Below are positions 21,176-42,263 of a stretch of 64,000 nt of DNA, in pieces; position 1 is the stretch's first letter, and every line of letters starts with the position of its first letter. Source of the stretch: Candidatus Kaiserbacteria bacterium (lineage in GTDB: Bacteria; Patescibacteriota; Minisyncoccia; Phycocordibacterales; JABAAK01); the NCBI GenBank assembly GCA_026713605.1, contig JAPOOC010000010.1:10556-74555 (forward strand), written 5' to 3'. The position numbers were made by a program, and so were the translations under genes. The notes beneath the pieces were generated by a model. That model saw nothing but the letters and a program-made list of their open reading frames with translations. It had not been told where the DNA came from and made no database searches.

Positions 21176-21248
21176 CCACCTGTAGCTCAATTGGTAGAGC
21201 ACTCGTCTTATACACGGGCGGTTCCTGGTTCGAGTCCAGGCGGGTGGA
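21176..21248 (+). tRNA. tRNA-Ile (anticodon TAT/UAU), C1:G72, no encoded CCA
   Basis: Acceptor CCACCTG/CGGGTGG, D-arm GCTCAATTGGTAGAGC, anticodon stem CTCGT/ACGGG with loop CTTATAC, T-arm CCTGGTTCGAGTCCAGG. Confidence 0.6.
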
Positions 21249-21319
21249 CTGAAGAGGTTGATGAGGTCATCTTTTCCGTAAAGGGATATTGTGTTTGTGA
21301 GGCATGCTATACTTTGCAT

Positions 21320-21898
21320 ATGATTACTCGTTATCCCTGTCTTGCAACTTACTTTTTCCTCACCCTGTGCATTGCTTTCAGTTTGTTTGTTGGGCAGGTG
21401 TTTGCATGTGAGGTTTCGTCTCATTATCTTCCACCAGAAGGCGACCTGCAACCCTCTGATGAAGTGCCGAGGGTGCTCCCTCGAGCGCCTTTCGGCGAGG
21501 GCGCACGGACAGAAAATGAGGTTGTTGAAGGGAAGAAGAGGTTTTTCACCTATCGGATTACCTATGATGCGTTTGACAATGTTGTTGCGATGGAGGCGGA
21601 TCTGCCGTTTGGATATACCCTTTCGGAACGGTTTGTATATCATGACAACCAGCACCCGTTTTATCATACGCCCACTGAAGAATGGCGCTGGTTTTCTAAC
21701 GAGCGAGAGTCCAGTGTTTCCTTGGTAGATAAAAATGGGAAGGAGATTGCTTCTGAGCGCAGGGTGTGTGGTACTGACGGTGCATTGATTGAGAAGACAC
21801 ACGGTGGCTCACGAATAGCGGCATATACTATACTTGTTATGCTCTCTGGCATCATTGGCATTGACCCACCTGAACGAAGTGAGGTTGTTGATTCATAG
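21320..21898 (+). CDS. secreted hypothetical protein
   Basis: Start at MITRYPCLATYFFLTLCIAFSLFVGQVFA (signal-peptide-like). The track ORF 21173..21898 overlaps the tRNA. Native GC content. Confidence 0.4.
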   Translation: MITRYPCLATYFFLTLCIAFSLFVGQVFACEVSSHYLPPEGDLQPSDEVPRVLPRAPFGEGARTENEVVEGKKRFFTYRITYDAFDNVVAMEADLPFGYTLSERFVYHDNQHPFYHTPTEEWRWFSNERESSVSLVDKNGKEIASERRVCGTDGALIEKTHGGSRIAAYTILVMLSGIIGIDPPERSEVVDS

Positions 21899-22051
21899 GG
21901 TTGTCGCGAAGGTAACTGCAAGTGGGGGGTGTTCCTGCCAATTGGGTTAAAAAGTTGTGATGGCGAGGGAAAACTCCTGTGATTTGCCTGTATACCTTAT
22001 TTTCAATGTTTTTACTGGTGAATTCCCTATAACCTTGCCAAGTTAAGAAAT

Positions 22052-23251
22052 TTGACAACTAAAGTAAAATTAGTACACTATACTTATATGTATGATAACA
22101 GCACACATAGAGGAAGCGAGGAGCGTCAACAGGGGTGTGAGATATTTTTTCTACAGGTAGGGGAAAATGATTCAGAGAGTAGTCAGAGTGGGGATGCTAT
22201 TGTTCTGACAATGGGCAATCGTTTCAGTAATAATAGGGATGATTATAAAATCATTGTGATTGATGGTGCGTTTACTCATGATGCGCAAACCGTTAAGAAG
22301 CACTTAAATCTTTTGGATGCAAAAAATGAAAATGACAAGTTACAGATTGATTTAATGGTTTCTACACATTCTGATCAGGATCACATAAGTGGTTTGATTA
22401 AGTTGGTGGAAGACGATGATGTTGAGATTAAAAAATTGTGGGTTCATGACTGTAATAAAATTACAGGCAATATTACATGCAGCGTTGATCAGGTAAAAAA
22501 TTTAATTTGGATTGCAGGAAAGAGGGGCATACCTATGGAAGAGCCATTTGCTGGTCTGTCATACAATCCTGATGATATAGATGCTTGTATAGAGGTATTA
22601 GGACCAACAGGAGAATACTATGAGGAATTAATGTGTTCTGTAGATAAGGTATATGTAAAAGGTAAGAGAAAGAACGCTTTTAGTGTTTTAGGAAGAGCTT
22701 GTGACGCATTGCGCAATAGTGTTGGCTCAATGCTTGAGCATGTATTTGATACAGAATTACTGAAAGACCCTGATGAAAATGCAACATCTAATAGTAATAA
22801 TTCTTCAGCAATTTTATTATTAAAATTTTTCAAAAATGATCAAGTGAGTGATCTTGCATTATTCACTGCTGATGCCGGTGTTCCAGCATTGGAGAAGGTT
22901 TTTCCGGCGCTTGAGGAGCATGGTTGGTCTGAATACAGTGTTAAAAGGTTTTTACAAATTCCACACCACGGGAGCAGAAGGAATGTTGGTCCAACACTTT
23001 TAGATGAGTTACTCGGCGAAAAGGAATTTAATTGTAGAAGAGGCTCCTGCTTTGTTTCTGCGCACGAGAAGGATGAGAGCCATCCGAAAGTGCAGGTACT
23101 CAATGCGTTTACAAGAAGAGGTTATAGAGATATTGAAGATATATATCCTGCTAAACGACATCATATGGGTGATACCCCATCAATTAATGGATGGGAGACT
23201 GCTGAGAAGATTGATTTACTGTTAGGAGAGGAGGAGGAAGAACACGATTAA
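22052..23251 (+). CDS. standalone ComEC-C-like metallo-beta-lactamase-fold hydrolase, first gene of the AT-rich island
   Basis: GDAIVLTMGN...YKIIVIDGAF; STHSDQDHISG (TH.D.DHI.G, as in the ComEC MBL domain at 41388..42263); IPHHGSRRN (HHGS motif). Confidence 0.55.
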   Translation: MTTKVKLVHYTYMYDNSTHRGSEERQQGCEIFFLQVGENDSESSQSGDAIVLTMGNRFSNNRDDYKIIVIDGAFTHDAQTVKKHLNLLDAKNENDKLQIDLMVSTHSDQDHISGLIKLVEDDDVEIKKLWVHDCNKITGNITCSVDQVKNLIWIAGKRGIPMEEPFAGLSYNPDDIDACIEVLGPTGEYYEELMCSVDKVYVKGKRKNAFSVLGRACDALRNSVGSMLEHVFDTELLKDPDENATSNSNNSSAILLLKFFKNDQVSDLALFTADAGVPALEKVFPALEEHGWSEYSVKRFLQIPHHGSRRNVGPTLLDELLGEKEFNCRRGSCFVSAHEKDESHPKVQVLNAFTRRGYRDIEDIYPAKRHHMGDTPSINGWETAEKIDLLLGEEEEEHD

Positions 23252-23253
23252 TT

Positions 23254-23754
23254 ATGAAAAGATTAATACAAATAATGACAACTTATAATTTATTAAATTA
23301 TCTATTGCCGGGCATCTTGTTTGTCATTTTTGCAAATCATTTTACCTCGTATTCCTTTTTACAAGAGAATTTGATAATAGGGGGTTTTTTGTACTATTTT
23401 ATAGGTATGGTAATTAGTCGAATAGGGTCGTTATTTATTGAGCCATTCTTAAAAAAAATTCGTTTTTTAAATTTTGCTAATTACAAAGATTTTATTTATG
23501 CTGGCAATAAGGATGAAAAAATAGGAGTTCTTTCTGAACAAAATAATCAATATAGAACCATTGTGGCATTTCTAGTATCAATTGGTTTACTGAAAGTGTG
23601 GGAATTATTTTCTGATTATTTGAACTTAAGCCAATTTGCGGAAGCGGTGATTATTTATGTGGTTCTTTTGATAATATTTTTAGTTTCGTATAGGAAACAA
23701 ACAAATTATATAAGGTCAAGGGTTGAGGCAAACAAAAAAGAGGGCGGGTCATAA
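23254..23754 (+). CDS. small 4-TM membrane protein, hypothetical (island gene)
   Basis: 166 aa with four hydrophobic helices; starts 3 nt after the MBL gene stop; AT-rich. Confidence 0.5.
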   Translation: MKRLIQIMTTYNLLNYLLPGILFVIFANHFTSYSFLQENLIIGGFLYYFIGMVISRIGSLFIEPFLKKIRFLNFANYKDFIYAGNKDEKIGVLSEQNNQYRTIVAFLVSIGLLKVWELFSDYLNLSQFAEAVIIYVVLLIIFLVSYRKQTNYIRSRVEANKKEGGS

Positions 23755-23886
23755 AATAAACATTACAGCCCACCTTGCTAAATTAAGAAAATCCACATAT
23801 TTTGATATAATTCAATATTTTTACCTTATACTATTAGTGTATGTGGTGTGCTATGTGCCGTTTTCTTTCTTCAGGTTTCTTTACTT

Positions 23887-25779
23887 GCTATGGTTGAGAA
23901 AAGTTACAAGATTGGCGAAGTGGCAGAGATGTTGGGGGTGCATGAGGACACCTTGCGAAATTGGGACGCGCATGGGTTGGTGGTGGCAGACAGAGTAGGG
24001 ACGAGGAAAGATAGGAGGTATACAGTGGAACACATAAAGCAGATAAAGGAGAAAGGGCTTGTGTCTGATCTTGCGAGGCGGCAGCCGAGCGGTCGGGATT
24101 ATTCGGATTATTCAAAGGAACAGTTGATTAAGGAGTTGCAAATATTGAAAGAACAGAGAAAGTACGGACTTGTGTGGGAAGATAAGCCGGAAGAGGTTGT
24201 TGAGATGTGTAAGACACAGGCACCCATCTTAAAATCAGTTCCAAAAATGAATGTTGCTGGAAGAAAAGGTGAGCAACGAAATATTATGATAGAGGGAGAT
24301 AACTACCATGCTTTGCAAGTTTTAAACTATACGCACAAAGGAAAGATTGATGTGATATATATTGATCCACCGTATAACACGGGAGCGAAAGATTGGAAAT
24401 ATAACAATGATTATGTTGAGAAAGAAGATGCCTTTCGGCACAGTAAGTGGATTTCAATGCTGTACAAAAGAATGTTATTGGCAAAGTCTTTATTAAAAAG
24501 TGATGGCGTAATGATAGTTACGATTGACGACCACGAATTATTTAGTCTTCTTGGGATTATTGAAGATCTTGATGCTACAACATTGGGTAGAGTTACCGTG
24601 TCAATTAAGCCAGAAGGCAGGCAACAAAGTAGATATGTGATGGAGTCCCATGAATATATTATATTTATGTCTTGGGGTGTACCTAAAATTAGAGGTCTAA
24701 ATATAAATTTCGGCTCAGATTTTACTGAGGAAGATGAAATTTCTAAATTTAAGTGGGAAGGGTTTATGCGTAGGGATGCTGGTCGTGAGGATAGAAGTTC
24801 AAATACTTGGTATCCAATTTATGTAGATCAGCAAGGCAATGTTAGTCTTAAGGAAAAACCAAACACGATTAAAGTGTTGCCTATAAATACAAAAGGCATT
24901 GAACGAGTCTGGCTTTGGTCAGAAGAAAGAGCACAAAAAGATATAAGTGAATTAAAAGCAGTGATCAGAAATAATCGAGCTACTGTTTACTACAAAAGGA
25001 GAGAGCAAGAGCGAGTTAAACCAACCTCAATATGGTTTGGTAGTAAATATAATGCAAATGCATACGGCACAAGACTCTTATCAAGAATCTTGCCGGAGAA
25101 CAATTTCGATTACCCAAAAAGCCTTTATTCTGTGCTGGATGCAATAGATTTATTTTTACCAAAAGATGGGTTGGTATTGGATTTCTTCGCTGGATCAGGA
25201 ACAGCAGGACACGCAGTGATGGAATTAAACAAGGAAGATAGCGGAAGTAGGCGATTTATCCTCTGCACAAATAACGAAAACAACAATGGTAACGGACATG
25301 GTGGGATTGCTGAGAGCGTGTGTCAGCCGAGGATTAAAAAGGTGATGAAGGGATATAAGAAAAATGGGAATGGAGAGAGGGTTGAGGGGCTTGGCGGCAG
25401 TTTGGAATACTTTAAAACAGAGTTTATTGATGTGGAGAATGTGAGTGATGTTCCAGACAAGAAAAGGTTGCGATTTACCCATGAAGCCGGACATGTGGTC
25501 GCTTTGAAAGAAAACGCGTTTACTGAGTTGGAGAAAAATAATTGGTATCAGATATTTACTGATGGATTAGATAAATATGTGGGTCTTTATTTTAGAGAAA
25601 ACATTGAAAAATTAGAGGATTTGGAACAAAAGATTTTAAACAGGGGAGAGGTAAAATTATATATATTTTCACATGGCGGCAGTGATGACTGGAAAAATGA
25701 CTATACAGAGCATGAAAATGTGATAGTTGAAGATATACCAGAGCCGATATTAAAGGTGTATAAAATTTTAAATAGTTAG
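23887..25779 (+). CDS. MerR-type HTH fused to an N6-adenine/N4-cytosine DNA methyltransferase (beta class; Type III Mod-like)
   Basis: YKIGEVAEMLGVHEDTLRNWDAHGLV MerR HTH; IYIDPPYNTG (motif IV) upstream of LDFFAGSGTAGHAV (motif I), the order typical of Type III Mod/beta-class MTases. Confidence 0.8.
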   Translation, partial: AMVEKSYKIGEVAEMLGVHEDTLRNWDAHGLVVADRVGTRKDRRYTVEHIKQIKEKGLVSDLARRQPSGRDYSDYSKEQLIKELQILKEQRKYGLVWEDKPEEVVEMCKTQAPILKSVPKMNVAGRKGEQRNIMIEGDNYHALQVLNYTHKGKIDVIYIDPPYNTGAKDWKYNNDYVEKEDAFRHSKWISMLYKRMLLAKSLLKSDGVMIVTIDDHELFSLLGIIEDLDATTLGRVTVSIKPEGRQQSRYVMESHEYIIFMSWGVPKIRGLNINFGSDFTEEDEISKFKWEGFMRRDAGREDRSSNTWYPIYVDQQGNVSLKEKPNTIKVLPINTKGIERVWLWSEERAQKDISELKAVIRNNRATVYYKRREQERVKPTSIWFGSKYNANAYGTRLLSRILPENNFDYPKSLYSVLDAIDLFLPKDGLVLDFFAGSGTAGHAVMELNKEDSGSRRFILCTNNENNNGNGHGGIAESVCQPRIKKVMKGYKKNGNGERVEGLGGSLEYFKTEFIDVENVSDVPDKKRLRFTHEAGHVVALKENAFTELEKNNWYQIFTDGLDKYVGLYFRENIEKLEDLEQKILNRGEVKLYIFSHGGSDDWKNDYTEHENVIVEDIPEPILKVYKILNS

Positions 25780-25780
25780 T

Positions 25781-26869
25781 ATGAAAAAAATAACATTAAA
25801 ACCATTTCAGATTAATATAATCAAAAGATTGGAAAATTTTTCTTTTCGGAAGTTTGTTGATCTTGATAATTTTTTCAATGTAAAAAATATCGTTTTATTA
25901 TTTGTATTTATCTGGCTTATTGTTGCTTTTTTGTTTATGCATAAAATCGAGATGGAATTATTATCACCTTTGATCAGGATTCTTAGTATTATTGGTTGGG
26001 GAACCATCGGATACTTTGTTATTTGTCATACTGCTGGCTATGGCCTGTATAAGAAAATAATTCCTTGGGGAGAACGAGGAGCGGTAATAAAAATTATTGG
26101 CGTGTGTGTTGGATTATCCATCGGTTGGGTTTTTACATTTTTTGTAAGATGGATGCATGCGCTGCTCTTGAGTGAGGTGCTCGTCATTAGTATTGCTACG
26201 GTATTTGCGATGTTATTTTCTTACCTCGTATTTAGATTTTTCAGATACAGTAATCAAAATATCAAGGGAGGTGTTGCTTACATAGATGGCAATAATTTGC
26301 ATAAGGGGAGTAGGCAATTGGGTTGGGTGTTGGATTATCAAAGATTCAGGCAGTGGTTGAAGGATAAGTATGATATAGAACGGGCAGTAATTTTTATTGG
26401 GTATTTGAAAAAAAATGAGAAATTGTATTCGGATTTGAGAAGTCAAGGTTACGAGCTTTGCTTTAAAGAAGTTTCTTATGGCAGAAGAGGAGAAATCAAG
26501 GGAAATGTAGATTCAGATTTGGTGCAGAAAGTAATGGAAGATTACTCGGAGGAAAAGTTAGGAGAAAATAGTGTTGTTATAGTTTCTGGTGATGGTGATT
26601 ATGCACCGAATATACGATTTTTAAAAAAGAAAGGATTATTTAGAGCGTTGCTTGCTCCATGTAATGAAAGTCAAATGAATAATGGTAAAAGATCTGGAGT
26701 TTCTGTGTTGCTAAAAAAATTAAATATACGAATTGATTACATTGGTAACCATAAAAATGTATTAGAGAAAAAGAAAAGGCGCCCAGCGAAGACGATACAT
26801 CGCAAGGCCCCAATTCATCGTGATAATAAAATTGTATCTAATAATGAGAAAAATGTCAATATTTCATAA
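25781..26869 (+). CDS. membrane-anchored NYN-domain (LabA/PIN-like) predicted ribonuclease
   Basis: About 4 TM helices in the N-terminal 170 aa, then AYIDGNNL...GNVDSDL...VIVSGDGDY NYN motifs. The first 11 aa (MKKITLKPFQIN) are shared with the next gene. Confidence 0.65.
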   Translation: MKKITLKPFQINIIKRLENFSFRKFVDLDNFFNVKNIVLLFVFIWLIVAFLFMHKIEMELLSPLIRILSIIGWGTIGYFVICHTAGYGLYKKIIPWGERGAVIKIIGVCVGLSIGWVFTFFVRWMHALLLSEVLVISIATVFAMLFSYLVFRFFRYSNQNIKGGVAYIDGNNLHKGSRQLGWVLDYQRFRQWLKDKYDIERAVIFIGYLKKNEKLYSDLRSQGYELCFKEVSYGRRGEIKGNVDSDLVQKVMEDYSEEKLGENSVVIVSGDGDYAPNIRFLKKKGLFRALLAPCNESQMNNGKRSGVSVLLKKLNIRIDYIGNHKNVLEKKKRRPAKTIHRKAPIHRDNKIVSNNEKNVNIS

Positions 26870-26880
26870 AGGAGAATAAT

Positions 26881-29112
26881 ATGAAAAAAATAACACTAAA
26901 ACCATTTCAAGTTAATGCGATTGAAGGCCTGAAGAAGGAGGTGTTGCATCGATGGAGGAGAGATACACGGCAGGATATAAAGTTTCAGTCGCCGACAGGA
27001 TCGGGTAAGACGGTGATGATGGCTCAATTTGTGCGTGACTTGGTGAATGCGCCGGAATTATCAAATGCAGATTTTGCCTTTTTATGGGTGAGTATTGGCG
27101 GATCAAGTGATGGGGATCTGGCATATCAGAGCAGGAATAAGTTTGATGAGTACTATGGTGGCGCGTCTGAAGTTGCTGTTACCGGACTGGACAGCTTGAG
27201 TAGAGAGAAAAAAATGGAGCAAAACGAAATACTGTTTTTTAACTGGTCAAAGATTAAAACGAGAAATAAGGATGGCAGGAAACTGAGAAGGGAAAACGAA
27301 CAGGAGATAACGTGGGACGGCATGATACAGAGAACGCACGCAGAAGAGCGAGATATTATCCTCATCATTGACGAGGCGCACAACAGCAGCTCAACACTTC
27401 TTGCTGAGGAAGAGATAAGGTTGATCAATCCAAAGATGGTGATACACATCACCGCAACGCACCGGGATCAAAGTAATATAGATGTGCATGTCACTCCTCA
27501 GGAAGTAGTACAAGCTGGGCTTATAAAAGAGTTAATCAAATCACAAACACAGCAGGATTTTAAGGATAAGCGAGTGAAAGATTTAGACAAACATGTTCTC
27601 AAACTATCTCTCAAAAAGAGAAAAGAGATTGCATCTTTGTATAAAAAAGAAAAAGTGGATGTAAATCCGCTACTTATGATTCAGTTGCCAAATGATGATC
27701 GGGCAAATCAGGAAGAAGAAACAAAAAAAGAATCTGTGCTGCGATGGCTGAAAGAAGAAGGTGTTGATGAAAACACTGTTGCGATATGGCTTGATAAAGA
27801 GAAAACACGATTAGAGAACATAACGATGCATAATAACGGTATCGATATTCTGCTATTCAAGCAGGCACCGGCTACTGGCTGGGATTGTCCAAGGGCACAG
27901 GTATTGTTGATGTATCGTGAAACAAAGGATCCCGTCTTTCAAGTGCAGGTGTTGGGGAGGATTTTGCGCATGCCGGAAGGAAAGCATTACACAAAATCAA
28001 AATTAAACAGTTCGTACCTCTACACCACCTACACAAAAAATGAGATTATTGACAATTACGGTAATTACCAAGGAGAAAATCAATTAGCAATCTTTCGTGC
28101 ATCTATTAAAAAAGCTATTGAGCAAATTAAACTCAAAACATTTGTTTCTCAAAGAACCAGTTACAACGACCTTGGAAAAACATTTCAGTTCACCTTTATC
28201 AAAACTGCCAACAAAGCATTTGATAAAAAGAAATCCTTTCAGTCCTGCTTTACCTTCGGCGAAGAGGTTGAGTTAGATTTGATAGTTGATCAGGATATAC
28301 GAGATTACGATGGCTTTATACAAGCAATTAAAGAGGCGGACAGTTTGGGGCAAAAAATGTCTCGCAATGATATAGAGAAGTTGTATAAGAAATTGTGTAT
28401 TGAGATTTTACATAAACAGGAAGAAGAAACAAAATTTAAAAACATCGCCAGGTCATACGGAAAATTAAAATCTGCTATTAATGTGTGGTTTGAAAAATAT
28501 GTTGGTATTAGAGATAAAAATGAATACTACCCTTGTGTTGTGAATGACCTTAACAGAGGGGCAAACAGCATCCTGCTCCCAGTGATAAATAAGGCATTGG
28601 AACAATATGTTTCTGTAAGAAGTAAGGAGGAGGAGGAGCGAGACAAAAAAAAGGTTGATACCAAGGAAATTCTAATACCCCTAAGTGATTTCTCTTATAC
28701 AAGCAACTATGAAGAAATATCAAGTACCAAATGCGCCATGTCGCCGTGTTATGTAAACAAGAATAATGAAAACGAGAGAAAGTTCATAGAATATCTTGAG
28801 AATAATGCATCTGTTGAGTGGTGGTATAAAAATGGGGAAAACGGATCAGAACATTTCTCTATAAGAAGGGATAGTGGTAATTTATTTTTTCCCGACTGGT
28901 TTATTAAAACAAAAAAAGACATTTGGGTGGTAGACACGAAAGGAGGGTTCACTGCTGAAGGAGAAAGTGCTGTTTCTCGGGCAAAAGCATTAGACATATG
29001 GTTGAAAGAAAACAAAAACTTTAAGGGAGGTCTTGTAAAGGAAGTTTCTGGTCTTTGGAAGATTGCAAAAGATACAAAGTTGGAAAAGTGGGTTGATTGG
29101 AATTTTGAATAA
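26881..29112 (+). CDS. Type III restriction enzyme Res-like DEAH-box helicase with C-terminal PD-(D/E)xK-type nuclease region
   Basis: LKPFQ Q-motif, SPTGSGKT Walker A, IIDEAHN DEAH box; C-terminal FFPDWFIK...VVDTKGG nuclease-like motif. Confidence 0.75.
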   Translation: MKKITLKPFQVNAIEGLKKEVLHRWRRDTRQDIKFQSPTGSGKTVMMAQFVRDLVNAPELSNADFAFLWVSIGGSSDGDLAYQSRNKFDEYYGGASEVAVTGLDSLSREKKMEQNEILFFNWSKIKTRNKDGRKLRRENEQEITWDGMIQRTHAEERDIILIIDEAHNSSSTLLAEEEIRLINPKMVIHITATHRDQSNIDVHVTPQEVVQAGLIKELIKSQTQQDFKDKRVKDLDKHVLKLSLKKRKEIASLYKKEKVDVNPLLMIQLPNDDRANQEEETKKESVLRWLKEEGVDENTVAIWLDKEKTRLENITMHNNGIDILLFKQAPATGWDCPRAQVLLMYRETKDPVFQVQVLGRILRMPEGKHYTKSKLNSSYLYTTYTKNEIIDNYGNYQGENQLAIFRASIKKAIEQIKLKTFVSQRTSYNDLGKTFQFTFIKTANKAFDKKKSFQSCFTFGEEVELDLIVDQDIRDYDGFIQAIKEADSLGQKMSRNDIEKLYKKLCIEILHKQEEETKFKNIARSYGKLKSAINVWFEKYVGIRDKNEYYPCVVNDLNRGANSILLPVINKALEQYVSVRSKEEEERDKKKVDTKEILIPLSDFSYTSNYEEISSTKCAMSPCYVNKNNENERKFIEYLENNASVEWWYKNGENGSEHFSIRRDSGNLFFPDWFIKTKKDIWVVDTKGGFTAEGESAVSRAKALDIWLKENKNFKGGLVKEVSGLWKIAKDTKLEKWVDWNFE

Positions 29113-29223
29113 AAGTTATTTTTCCCATGTGATAATCATGTTCTTGTTCCCTGTCTGGATACCCCTCTTTTTTATAAAATTTATAAAACTGTTAAGTGAG
29201 TAGATGGCGGGAAACATTTTAAA

Positions 29224-29256
29224 AGGGGCGGTCAATGACCGCCCCTTTATTGTTTT
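29224..29256 (+). terminator. rho-independent terminator closing the island operon
   Basis: 9-bp stem GGGGCGGTC/GACCGCCCC, loop AAT, followed by TTTATTGTTTTT. Confidence 0.65.
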
Positions 29257-41387: not shown

Positions 41388-42263
41388 TTAGTTACACACA
41401 CTGAACTGTGTTGGCGTTATGCAGAATGATACCGTGCCGTTTGCGGTGTAGTATTCGGTGAGGTTTTCTGTTGGGTTTTTCTCGGCGTACACCCTGACGC
41501 GGCTGAGGACTATGTCGTGCGGGTGCCCATACGGATTATCTTTTCCTGCGGAGTATACAATTGCATTTGGCTTGGTGTGCTGTAGAAAAGTTGCTGTCGT
41601 TGCGGTTTTTGATCCGTGATGTCCTGCTTTGAGTATCTCTATGTCATCCAGTTTTTCTGGAAAAGATTCTATGAGGAAATTTTCTATTTCGGTGGGCGCG
41701 TCACCGGTGAGTACTATTTCCGTATTGCCGTATGTTACCAGTAGTGCAACTGATGCGGCGTTTGTTTCGGTTACCTCCGTACTCAGTGGCCACAGAATAT
41801 CAAATTGCACACCATCAAGGAGGAACGAGCGTGGTTGCTGTATGGTGTGTACCCCTGCTTTTTCCTTCTCTATCGCCTCCATGACTTGCTTATACACACT
41901 ACTTTCTGACACTGCAAATGACTGCAGTATTGTTCCGACTGTGTATCGCTCCAATATTGGTATGAAACCGCCGATGTGATCCTCATCTGGGTGTGTCATT
42001 ACCACAACATCAATGTTTCTGTTTCTTGTTGACACTATATCATCAAGCGCACTGAGTACCTGTATCCCCCTACCTGCATCAATTACTACTCGATGGCTAT
42101 TTGGTGTCTCAAGTACTATGGCATCTCCTTGCCCGACATCGAGGAAGTGTACACGGAGTGGTTCTTCTTCTGTGAACAGCATGTGCCATACCAGCGCATA
42201 CCACCAGTAACCAATTATGAGTATGGTGGCGGTGAGTACAGTGATTGCTGTTTTTTTGTTCAT
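41388..42263 (-). CDS. ComEC/Rec2-type metallo-beta-lactamase domain protein (separately encoded C-terminal domain of ComEC)
   Basis: N-terminal [30 protein letters not shown] and [12 protein letters not shown] motifs of the ComEC MBL domain. Confidence 0.7.

What the first reader, a model, noticed from the sequence alone, without database searches (positions are those of the whole stretch)
22052..23251. Standalone ComEC-C-like MBL hydrolase paralog heads the defence island
The 399-aa protein shares the ComEC MBL-domain fingerprint (TH.D.DHI.G and HHGS) with the bona fide ComEC MBL protein at 41388..42263. It has no TM segment and is AT-rich like the rest of the island. A DNA-uptake nuclease domain recruited to a defence context would be notable.
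Basis: partly seen in the sequence, partly recalled or inferred. Interest (0 to 1): 0.55.

Follow-up and report, generated by a model that had tools for sequence, protein, structure and literature searches.

The report
ComEC-like nuclease with membrane partner
The gene is a real relative of the DNA-uptake nuclease ComEC, but it is not standalone: it is one half of a widespread, catalogued but untested two-gene candidate anti-phage module whose other half is the small membrane protein encoded right after it.

Summary
The ORF exists; its likely start is ATG 22088 (387 aa), not TTG 22052. It has no TM segment, lies in a low-GC island, and carries the ComEC-type MBL fingerprint (HxDxDH and PHHGS). 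ComEC's MBL domain is its best match by sequence profile (E 2e-15, next hit 8e-4) and by predicted fold (Foldseek E 8e-14).

Two parts of the interpretation need correcting.
- It is not standalone. A conserved 166-aa four-helix membrane protein (23254-23754) starts 2 nt after its stop. The pair matches PADLOC's unvalidated candidate PDC-M48 (B 1e-45, A 2e-60).
- It is not a recent paralog of the host ComEC-like gene (about 25% identity; different GC).

Relatives occur in at least 530 species genomes. A small multi-pass membrane protein followed the MBL in 74 of 80 sampled loci and is fused to it in one more. The pair sits in the E. coli P2-prophage defence hotspot and on small plasmids. In 20 of 80 loci a Type I R-M gene lies within 10 kb.

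ComEC-like MBL DNases as defence effectors were published in 2025, but as protease-gated zymogens. This clade has no protease. Most likely it is a membrane-tethered latent DNase. It is a new member of a known, still uncharacterised kind. Interest is moderate.

The parts
22052..22079 (+). Promoter-like site TTGACA-16-TACACT. It overlaps the TTG that the ORF list takes as the start codon.
   Evidence: 10 of 12 consensus matches. This is a consensus match only. ATG 22088 follows the second hexamer by about 9 nt, so a leaderless transcript is possible (inference).
22088..23251 (+). ComEC-clade MBL-fold metallo-hydrolase (387 aa), the PDC-M48B subunit and predicted DNase. All MBL metal-site motifs are invariant across the family: H94-x-D96-x-D98-H99, H120, D262, H293-H294 (D96 is 90% or more). 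It has one ~50-aa insertion (residues ~175-230) relative to ComEC.
23224..23239 (+). Purine-rich SD-like run (AGGAGAGGAGGAGGAA) inside the 3' end of the MBL gene. The MBL stop is TAA 23249-23251 and the partner ATG is at 23254.
   Evidence: sequence read directly. Translational coupling is inferred.
23254..23754 (+). Small membrane protein (166 aa, four hydrophobic helices), the PDC-M48A subunit. The conserved loop (residues ~61-100) and the C-terminal tail are probably cytoplasmic. No Pfam family and no PDB fold match.
23848..25779 (+). Neighbour, not part of the module: MerR-HTH plus N6/N4 DNA methyltransferase (Type III Mod-like).
25781..26869 (+). Neighbour: NYN-domain protein with four N-terminal TM segments, sitting between mod and res.
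26881..29112 (+). Neighbour: ResIII/SF2 helicase (Type III Res-like). It has a C-terminal motif of PD-(D/E)xK type (FPDW...VVDTKGG).
   Evidence: The motif was read from the alignment and not tested.
29222..29248 (+). Strong terminator-like hairpin (12 pairs, 8 of them G-C) that closes the island.
41388..42263 (-). Comparator: the host's membrane-anchored ComEC-type MBL protein (291 aa). Its GC is typical of the host.

Best explanation
Genes 22088-23251 and 23254-23754 form one two-gene module of the PADLOC candidate type PDC-M48. It consists of a cytoplasmic ComEC-clade MBL metallo-nuclease and a small four-helix inner-membrane protein.

Most likely the membrane protein anchors the nuclease at the cytoplasmic face of the membrane and gates it. 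On infection, or on entry of foreign DNA, the nuclease becomes active and degrades DNA. It would either destroy the incoming genome at its entry site or cause abortive infection.

The module is an autonomous, mobile defence unit that tends to lodge in or beside R-M operons. Here it sits in front of a Type III-like mod / NYN / res operon.

Shown:
- homology to ComEC's nuclease domain;
- an intact metal site;
- a conserved membrane partner, with a fusion in one genome;
- membership of PDC-M48;
- location in defence hotspots and next to R-M genes.

Inferred:
- DNase activity, by analogy with ComEC and with HamM and the Avs-associated MBLs;
- cytoplasmic membrane tethering;
- the trigger;
- that the module defends at all.
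For: ComEC-type nuclease:
- Profile against PDB sequences: ComEC MBL domain 9ic4 E 2.1e-15 and ComEC 30bt E 3.1e-13. The next hit is 8e-4.
- Foldseek on an AF2 model (pLDDT 86, pTM 0.87): top hit 9ic4, E 8e-14, TMt 0.74.
- All MBL metal ligands are invariant or nearly so across 45 family members.
- Related defence MBLs are biochemically proven Zn-dependent DNases that do not cleave RNA, beta-lactam or choline esters.

Module:
- PADLOC PDC-M48B 1.1e-45 and PDC-M48A 2.4e-60.
- The gap between the genes is 2 nt, with an SD-like run upstream.
- The same pair occurs in Enterobacter (partner 41% identical), E. coli P2-like phage D8 and a 5.5-kb Citrobacter plasmid.
- Of 80 genome loci, 70 have a long-type 2TM-loop-2TM partner directly downstream, 1 has the short type, 3 have a third TM type, and L069 is an in-frame MBL::partner fusion.

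Defence context:
- The pair lies next to gpA in the P2 hotspot and occurs in 45 of 5426 E. coli genomes.
- Rousset et al. list 'hypothetical + Lactamase_B' among P2 hotspot loci.
- The most frequent Pfam families among the 116 nearest neighbours are Methylase_S, N6_Mtase and HsdM_N.
- 20 of 80 loci have a Type I R-M gene within 10 kb. L054 and L005 have the pair between hsdS and hsdR.

Topology:
- The MBL has no signal peptide or TM segment.
- In the fusion the MBL precedes TM1.
- Basic residues cluster in the partner's N-terminus, central loop and tail. By the positive-inside rule this places those parts in the cytoplasm (inference).
Against: No experiment exists for PDC-M48. PDC systems are explicitly described as unvalidated, and no paper mentions PDC-M48.

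Nuclease activity and substrate are inferred only. The next structural hits are phosphodiesterases that do not act on DNA: Pce/CbpE and yeast PDE1.

In known systems, small TM proteins are usually taken to be effectors rather than sensors or anchors (Rousset et al.).

The partner is more conserved than the MBL (50-58% against 35-39% identity across phyla). This does not say which of the two is the sensor.

The only other five-gene arrangement like this one (L004) lies at the same chromosomal locus, with the same UDG-DCD flank, in a related genome. It is therefore not independent evidence of linkage to the Type III operon.

The R-M enrichment has no computed background. The comparison rests on general knowledge of R-M density.
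Confidence: 0.6

Rival explanations
1. The roles are reversed. The membrane protein is the killing effector (pore or depolarisation), and the MBL is the sensor or processing enzyme that triggers it.
For: TM proteins in two-gene defence systems are usually interpreted as abortive-infection effectors (Rousset et al.). The partner is the more conserved of the two proteins. The MBL carries variable loops, as fast-evolving sensors often do.
Against: Every characterised relative of this MBL clade is the effector DNase. The MBL keeps a fully invariant catalytic site. The MBL is the constant component, while at least three different membrane-partner types are swapped in. The partner has no similarity to any known pore former.
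Confidence: 0.15
2. The module is not a defence system. It is a mobile-element addiction or exclusion cassette, or a minimal DNA-scavenging device: a split, inverted analogue of ComEC used by a reduced-genome CPR bacterium.
For: It is carried on a small plasmid next to ccdAB and on prophages. CPR bacteria have reduced genomes and may depend on scavenged nucleotides (own knowledge). ComEC also combines TM segments with this MBL.
Against: The MBL has no signal peptide, and in the fusion it lies on the cytoplasmic side. ComEC's nuclease domain is described as extracytoplasmic (own knowledge). The module occupies the P2 anti-phage hotspot and Type I R-M operons across many phyla with large genomes, including Streptomyces and Vibrio. 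The host already has its own ComEC-type MBL.
Confidence: 0.1
3. It is an accessory subunit of the adjacent R-M system, for example a degradative nuclease recruited by the Type III-like Mod/Res, and not an autonomous module.
For: It lies immediately upstream of mod here and in L004. It is frequently adjacent to or inside Type I R-M operons.
Against: The pair occurs with no R-M gene nearby in Enterobacter, in the E. coli P2 hotspot and on a 5.5-kb plasmid. It associates with both Type I and Type III systems. Res appears to carry its own PD-(D/E)xK-like motif. A separate promoter-like site precedes mod.
Confidence: 0.08
4. The MBL hydrolyses something other than DNA at the membrane: a phosphodiester such as a lipid head group, a teichoic-acid-like polymer or a cyclic nucleotide.
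For: The second and third ranked structural families are phosphorylcholine esterase Pce and cyclic-nucleotide phosphodiesterase PDE1. The enzyme is tied to a membrane protein.
Against: The sequence profile separates ComEC from everything else by 11 orders of magnitude. The HxDxDH and PHHGS fingerprint is shared with ComEC. The trypsin-associated defence MBL was tested and is inactive on a choline ester, beta-lactam and RNA.
Confidence: 0.07

Closest known systems
PADLOC phage defence candidate PDC-M48 (subunits A and B). PDC candidates are attributed to the guilt-by-embedding study, bioRxiv 10.1101/2024.01.29.577857.
   Same: Both genes hit the PDC-M48 models strongly: B at 1.1e-45 and A at 2.4e-60, full length for A. 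They are adjacent. The E. coli P2-hotspot pair hits the same models at 6e-99 and 6e-49.
   Different: None in architecture. The window's MBL is a divergent member: 154 bits here against 298-329 bits for other members, with a shorter first loop. PDC-M48 is itself only a prediction with no assigned mechanism.
Protease-gated MBL pro-nucleases of antiviral systems: HamM of Hachiman, Avs1a and the MBLs associated with Avs2 and Avs4, the MBL gene paired with protease-fused LmuA in Lamassu, the DRT-associated MBL, and CanC.
   Same: They belong to the same ComEC-like MBL clade. PADLOC LmuA scores 4.9e-22, RTasMBL 1.5e-16 and Avs1a 3.5e-11. They are separate soluble ~350-400-aa proteins encoded first in the locus. 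They carry large low-confidence insertions relative to ComEC at similar positions: here ~175-230, against loops at 107-129 and 184-203 in the Hachiman MBL.
   Different: No trypsin-, caspase- or subtilisin-like protease is encoded in the island, and none ranked among the 25 commonest neighbour families in 29 other loci. The partner is instead a small membrane protein. The NCBIfam Avs1a score is 52.5 against a cut-off of 420. The insertions carry no conserved candidate cut site. The first insertion is essentially absent from the window protein: 33 residues against a family median of 50.
ComEC/Rec2 DNA-uptake channel, C-terminal beta-lactamase-like nuclease domain
   Same: It is the best sequence-profile and fold match. 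It shares the HxDxDH, NxS and PHHGS motifs. Both combine this MBL with membrane-spanning helices.
   Different: There is no Competence (channel) domain or OB-fold domain, and no TIGR00361 hit. The MBL lacks a signal peptide or anchor and is predicted to be cytoplasmic. In the natural fusion the MBL is N-terminal to the TM helices, the reverse of ComEC. The protein has an extra ~50-aa insertion and a C-terminal extension.
Defence systems that pair a small multi-pass membrane protein with a DNA-targeting partner, such as Kiwa KwaA/KwaB (own knowledge, not tested here)
   Same: Two genes: a small multi-pass membrane protein plus a soluble protein that acts on DNA. The suggested logic is surveillance at the membrane.
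   Different: No sequence relationship was detected. PADLOC returned no Kiwa hit. The comparison is an analogy only.

Membership tests
PDC-M48 (PADLOC candidate two-gene system) | Protein matches a PDC-M48B (MBL) model | tested here: met
   PDLC04676 at E 1.1e-45, 154 bits, is the best of all PADLOC hits.
PDC-M48 (PADLOC candidate two-gene system) | Adjacent gene matches a PDC-M48A model | tested here: met
   PDLC04670 at E 2.4e-60, aligned 1-162 of 164. The gene starts 2 nt after the MBL stop.
PDC-M48 (PADLOC candidate two-gene system) | Anti-phage activity | not testable with these tools
   PDCs are described as unvalidated. No paper mentions PDC-M48.
ComEC/Rec2 competence protein | C-terminal MBL nuclease domain with the HxDxDH and HHGS motifs | tested here: met
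ComEC/Rec2 competence protein | Multi-pass Competence (channel) domain and N-terminal OB-fold domain in the same protein | tested here: not met
   Pfam finds only a weak Lactamase_B hit. There is no TIGR00361 hit and no TM segment.
Protease-gated MBL pro-nucleases (HamM, Avs1a, CanC type) | Adjacent trypsin-, caspase- or subtilisin-like protease, usually fused to a sensor | tested here: not met
   None of the five island genes has a protease domain. No protease family ranks among the 25 commonest families in the neighbours of 29 related loci.
Protease-gated MBL pro-nucleases (HamM, Avs1a, CanC type) | Equivalog-level match to Avs1a | tested here: not met
   NF041809 scores 52.5 bits against a cut-off of 420.
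Protease-gated MBL pro-nucleases (HamM, Avs1a, CanC type) | Two disordered insertions over the active site with conserved cleavage residues | tested here: inconclusive
   One large low-pLDDT insertion (189-210, within ~175-230) is present. The first insertion is short in the window protein. No conserved residue lies within the loops. Whether the loop covers the active site could not be examined.
6A-MBL anti-phage system | Equivalog match to the 6A-MBL enzyme and ubiquitin-like conjugation genes nearby | tested here: not met
   NF058524 scores 44.6 bits against a cut-off of 220. No E1, E2 or JAB domains are found in the island.
Rst_Hydrolase-3TM (Rousset et al. 2022) | HAD-like hydrolase plus a TM protein | tested here: not met
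   The paper describes a HAD-like hydrolase. The protein here has an MBL fold.

The most novel reading that the evidence does not exclude
The MBL-plus-membrane-protein module is a new activation logic for the ComEC-like defence nucleases. A dedicated four-helix membrane protein, rather than a sensor-fused protease, holds the DNase latent at the inner face of the membrane. It releases or activates the DNase when a phage perturbs the membrane or injects DNA. The family would then be a protease-independent sister, or precursor, of the HamM/Avs1a pro-nucleases, with at least three interchangeable membrane-partner types, only one of which PADLOC models.
Probability: 0.3. Interest if true: 0.6.

Novelty: new member of a known kind. 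Interest (0 to 1): 0.4.

Why it matters
ComEC-like MBL DNases have only recently been shown to be common immune effectors. In every characterised case a protease cuts two gating loops to activate them.

This clade is as widespread, with at least 530 species genomes, E. coli P2 prophages and plasmids. It has no protease and is paired with, or occasionally fused to, a small membrane protein. Showing how it is controlled would test two things: whether gating of these nucleases can be achieved without proteolysis, and whether bacteria station a DNase at the membrane to meet incoming DNA.

The E. coli P2-hotspot version makes this directly testable. For the window itself, the practical result is a corrected annotation: a two-gene PDC-M48 module in front of a Type III-like R-M operon in a Candidatus Kaiserbacteria genome.

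Tried and rejected
- **Rousset's 'Hydrolase-3TM' as the known identity.** Rejected, because that hydrolase is HAD-like.
- **PDC-M as 'Millman candidates'.** This was my recollection. It was corrected by the papers, which attribute PDCs to the guilt-by-embedding study. The Millman preprint has no MBL mention.
- **Literature searches** for 'PDC-M48' and for 'ComEC-like' with 'defense' gave nothing relevant; 'Hydrolase-3TM' returned only an unrelated Asgard-defence paper.
- **The partner as a membrane protease** that could replace the trypsin partner. There is no invariant His or Cys, no HExxH, and no Pfam, NCBIfam or PDB fold match. Not supported.
- **Homology between the short (166-aa) and long (about 240-aa) partner types.** BLASTP is negative. 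hhalign gives only 22% probability, E 9e-4, over 67 N-terminal columns. Left open.
- **Flanking direct repeats or an integrase** that would mark the island ends. None was found. Only tRNA-Ile lies about 800 nt upstream.
- **L004 as independent evidence** that the five genes travel together. Rejected, because it shares the UDG-DCD flank and so is the same locus in a related genome.

Full report
**1. The observation**

The ORF list gives 22052..23251 (+) as a 399-aa ORF starting at TTG. Its translation contains STHSDQDHISG and IPHHGSRR. The protein at 41388..42263 (-) contains [11 protein letters not shown] and AGHHGSK.

The two proteins align by BLASTP at E 2e-7, 31% over 95 residues. A 45-member family profile matches the 291-aa protein with hhalign probability 98.5%, E 2.3e-15, over 218 columns.

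The MBL protein has no hydrophobic segment; its maximum 19-residue Kyte-Doolittle mean is 1.01.

The island 22040-29250 has GC 0.367, against 0.46-0.48 on both sides.

One correction concerns the start codon. The NCBI protein for this gene (P0001, 'MAG: hypothetical protein, Candidatus Kaiserbacteria bacterium') is 387 aa and 100% identical, which puts the start at ATG 22088. The TTG at 22052 is the first hexamer of a promoter-like TTGACA-16-TACACT site. Family conservation only begins around residue 16 of the 387-aa form.

**2. What the enzyme is**

Pfam sees only a sub-threshold Lactamase_B match. More specific evidence is consistent:
- A phmmer search of PDB sequences returns only two hits, both ComEC MBL domains.
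- The family profile gives ComEC 9ic4 at E 2.1e-15 and ComEC 30bt at 3.1e-13. The next hit is a B3 beta-lactamase at 8e-4.
- An AlphaFold2 model (pLDDT 86, pTM 0.87) has the Moorella ComEC beta-lactamase-like domain as its top Foldseek hit (E 8e-14, TMt 0.74). Phosphorylcholine esterase Pce and yeast PDE1 follow.

The metal-site residues are invariant or nearly so in all 45 aligned relatives: H94, D96, D98, H99, H120, D262, H293 and H294. This points to an active enzyme.

That criterion is not met.

Relative to the host ComEC-type protein, the island protein has one large insertion, about residues 175-230, which includes the low-confidence loop 189-210. It also has a C-terminal extension. The first loop (H120..P153) is 33 residues here against a family median of 50.

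**3. It is not standalone**

A 166-aa ORF begins 2 nt after the MBL stop, behind a purine-rich SD-like run. It has four hydrophobic helices.

It has no Pfam or NCBIfam family and no PDB fold match. Yet it has at least 1906 database relatives at 50-58% identity across phyla, including Bacteroidota and Planctomycetota. This is higher than the 35-39% seen for the MBL at comparable distance.

PADLOC identifies the two proteins as the two subunits of candidate system PDC-M48: B at E 1.1e-45 and A at E 2.4e-60.

The same pair was found in four other settings:
- the Enterobacter roggenkampii chromosome, in convergent orientation, with the partner 41% identical;
- E. coli P2-like phage D8, right after replication gene A;
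- a 5.5-kb Citrobacter plasmid;
- two metagenomic contigs, L004 and L005; L004 looks CPR-like from its shared flank.

**4. How general the pairing is**

A scan of one genome per species found at least 530 genomes with a relative of the MBL. The phyla include Actinomycetota, Planctomycetota, Pseudomonadota, Bacteroidota, Acidobacteriota and Patescibacteria, plus one archaeal MAG.

In the 80 loci fetched:
- 70 have a co-directional 205-280-aa protein directly downstream, with two N-terminal and two C-terminal TM helices around a larger loop ('long type');
- one has the short PDC-M48A type;
- three have a third ~160-aa TM type;
- L069 (an Acidobacteriota MAG) encodes MBL and long-type partner as one reading frame. 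The MBL profile matches residues 65-424 and the partner profile matches 432-666.

The short and long partners share topology and position. Their homology is only suggestive: hhalign probability 22%, E 9e-4. The long type is not modelled in PADLOC.

The constant theme is therefore a ComEC-like MBL plus a small multi-pass membrane protein. The fusion is direct evidence that the two act together.

**5. Context**

The window island reads as follows:
- the MBL gene, 22088-23251;
- the 4TM partner, 23254-23754;
- a MerR-HTH N6/N4 methyltransferase, matching PADLOC Type III MTase at 1e-69;
- a NYN-domain protein;
- a ResIII helicase, matching Type III REase models at 1e-15;
- a strong terminator at 29222-29248.

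- In L005 and L054 the pair sits between hsdS and hsdR of a Type I system.
- Among the 116 nearest neighbours, two on each side in 29 loci, the commonest Pfam families are Methylase_S (7), N6_Mtase (6) and HsdM_N (6). ResIII, AAA_21, AAA_15, HEPN and Tn7-like TnsD/TniQ also occur. PADLOC agrees.
- A phmmer screen finds a Type I R-M component within 10 kb in 20 of 80 loci, and directly adjacent in at least 10.

I could not compute a background. From general knowledge, a random 20-kb window holds a Type I system in roughly 1% of cases, so the enrichment is large.

The pair also stands alone in the P2 prophage hotspot, in 45 of 5426 complete E. coli genomes. There PGAP calls the MBL 'ComEC/Rec2 family competence protein'. 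Rousset et al. list 'hypothetical + Lactamase_B' among P2-hotspot loci without testing it.

The module is therefore autonomous and mobile, and it tends to nest in R-M operons. PDC candidates are attributed to exactly this 'guilt-by-embedding' signature.

The identical five-gene layout in L004 is not independent evidence. L004 shares the UDG-DCD flank with the window, so it is the same locus in a related genome.

**6. Mechanism**

Three 2025 papers show that ComEC-like MBL proteins are effector DNases of Hachiman, AVAST, Lamassu, DRT, caspase-nuclease (canu) and other systems. They are made as zymogens, with two disordered insertions that block the active site. A sensor-fused trypsin- or caspase-like protease cuts both insertions to activate them. 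[quoted passage not shown]

The window protein hits the PADLOC models named LmuA (4.9e-22), RTasMBL (1.5e-16) and Avs1a (3.5e-11), far below family cut-offs. Its large insertion lies at a position similar to the second gating loop of those zymogens.

No protease is encoded in the island, and none ranks among the 25 commonest neighbour families. The loops also carry no conserved residue that could be a cut site.

My best reading is a membrane-tethered latent DNase:
- The MBL lacks a signal peptide.
- In the fusion it precedes TM1.
- The partner's basic, highly conserved central loop and C-terminal tail are predicted to be cytoplasmic.
- The nuclease would therefore dock on the inner face of the membrane, where it can meet injected DNA or be released to degrade DNA generally.

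Shown: the homology, the intact active site, the partner linkage and the defence-type context. Inferred: DNase activity, topology, the trigger and defence itself.

Rivals are a TM effector with an MBL sensor, a non-defence mobile-element or DNA-scavenging function, an accessory role for the neighbouring R-M system, and a non-DNA phosphodiester substrate. They are listed with their tests in the Rival explanations section.

**7. Comparison and novelty**

- The protein is not a ComEC. It has no Competence or OB domain and no TIGR00361 match.
- It is not a recent paralog of the host gene: identity is about 25% over the hhalign alignment, GC is 0.38 against 0.46, and the nearest relatives are island genes elsewhere.
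- It is a member of PDC-M48 by both subunit models and by adjacency.
- It fails the defining features of the protease-gated family, which are a protease partner and an equivalog-level score.
- It also fails those of 6A-MBL.

The specific module is already catalogued, but it is unvalidated and has no proposed mechanism.

I rate it a new member of a known kind, with moderate interest. The interest comes from the protease-less, membrane-partnered architecture, the natural fusion, and the partner types that PADLOC does not model.

Noticed in passing
window 25777-25816 and 26877-26916: A 40-nt direct repeat (90% identical). The NYN gene and the res helicase gene share the same upstream bases, and their first 17 residues are 76% identical (MKKITLKPFQ(I/V)N...). 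The NYN gene looks as if it was inserted between mod and res with a duplication of the res 5' end. The related locus L004 has a non-homologous 310-aa gene in the same slot, so this is a variable 'embedded' position inside a Type III-like operon.
   Followed up: partly
window 25781-26869 (+): The NYN-domain protein (NYN at residues 167-286) has four predicted N-terminal TM segments (starting near residues 30, 63, 99 and 121). It is therefore a membrane-anchored putative RNase within the R-M operon.
   Followed up: partly
window 23848-25779 vs L004 11629-13485: The Mod proteins are near-identical at both ends, but the central region of about 250 residues is unrelated. This is the pattern of a swapped target-recognition domain. 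Res is 78% identical. Its C-terminus has a motif of PD-(D/E)xK type (FPDW...VVDTKGG).
   Followed up: partly
L069 9806-11839 (Acidobacteriota MAG CAWBJU010000015.1): A single reading frame fuses the MBL to the long-type four-TM partner. An assembly or sequencing read-through was not excluded.
   Followed up: partly
L059, L072 and L076, downstream of the MBL: A third, unrelated ~160-aa membrane partner type, with the conserved motif CLRGVYLxxCVRKxWDxEWExWY. It has no PADLOC hit.
   Followed up: partly
L029 11071-12063, and weak second MBL hits in L019, L021, L023, L030, L032, L075, L082: Some loci carry a second, divergent ComEC-like MBL gene just after the MBL or after the MBL-partner pair. 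This hints at three-gene variants.
   Followed up: no
window 41388-42263 (-): The host 'ComEC' is only an N-terminally anchored MBL domain (291 aa). No Competence-domain ORF was found among its immediate neighbours, which are FtsH, an M50 peptidase and ribosomal protein S12. It scores better against the PADLOC LmuA and RTasMBL models (1.5e-25 and 2.9e-21) than the island MBL does.
   Followed up: partly
window 21176-21249 and 21250-22050: tRNA-Ile (anticodon tat) lies about 800 nt upstream of the island. The stretch between has no convincing gene and holds a 15-nt repeat (21514 and 21877). UDG and DCD genes lie upstream, as they do in L004, which suggests a conserved integration hotspot.
   Followed up: no
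PHROGs and phage record NC_049389.1: The MBL family is labelled 'tail protein' in phrog_7043 and in one Peduovirus record. This is probably an annotation error that has propagated from a fusion or a neighbouring gene.
   Followed up: no
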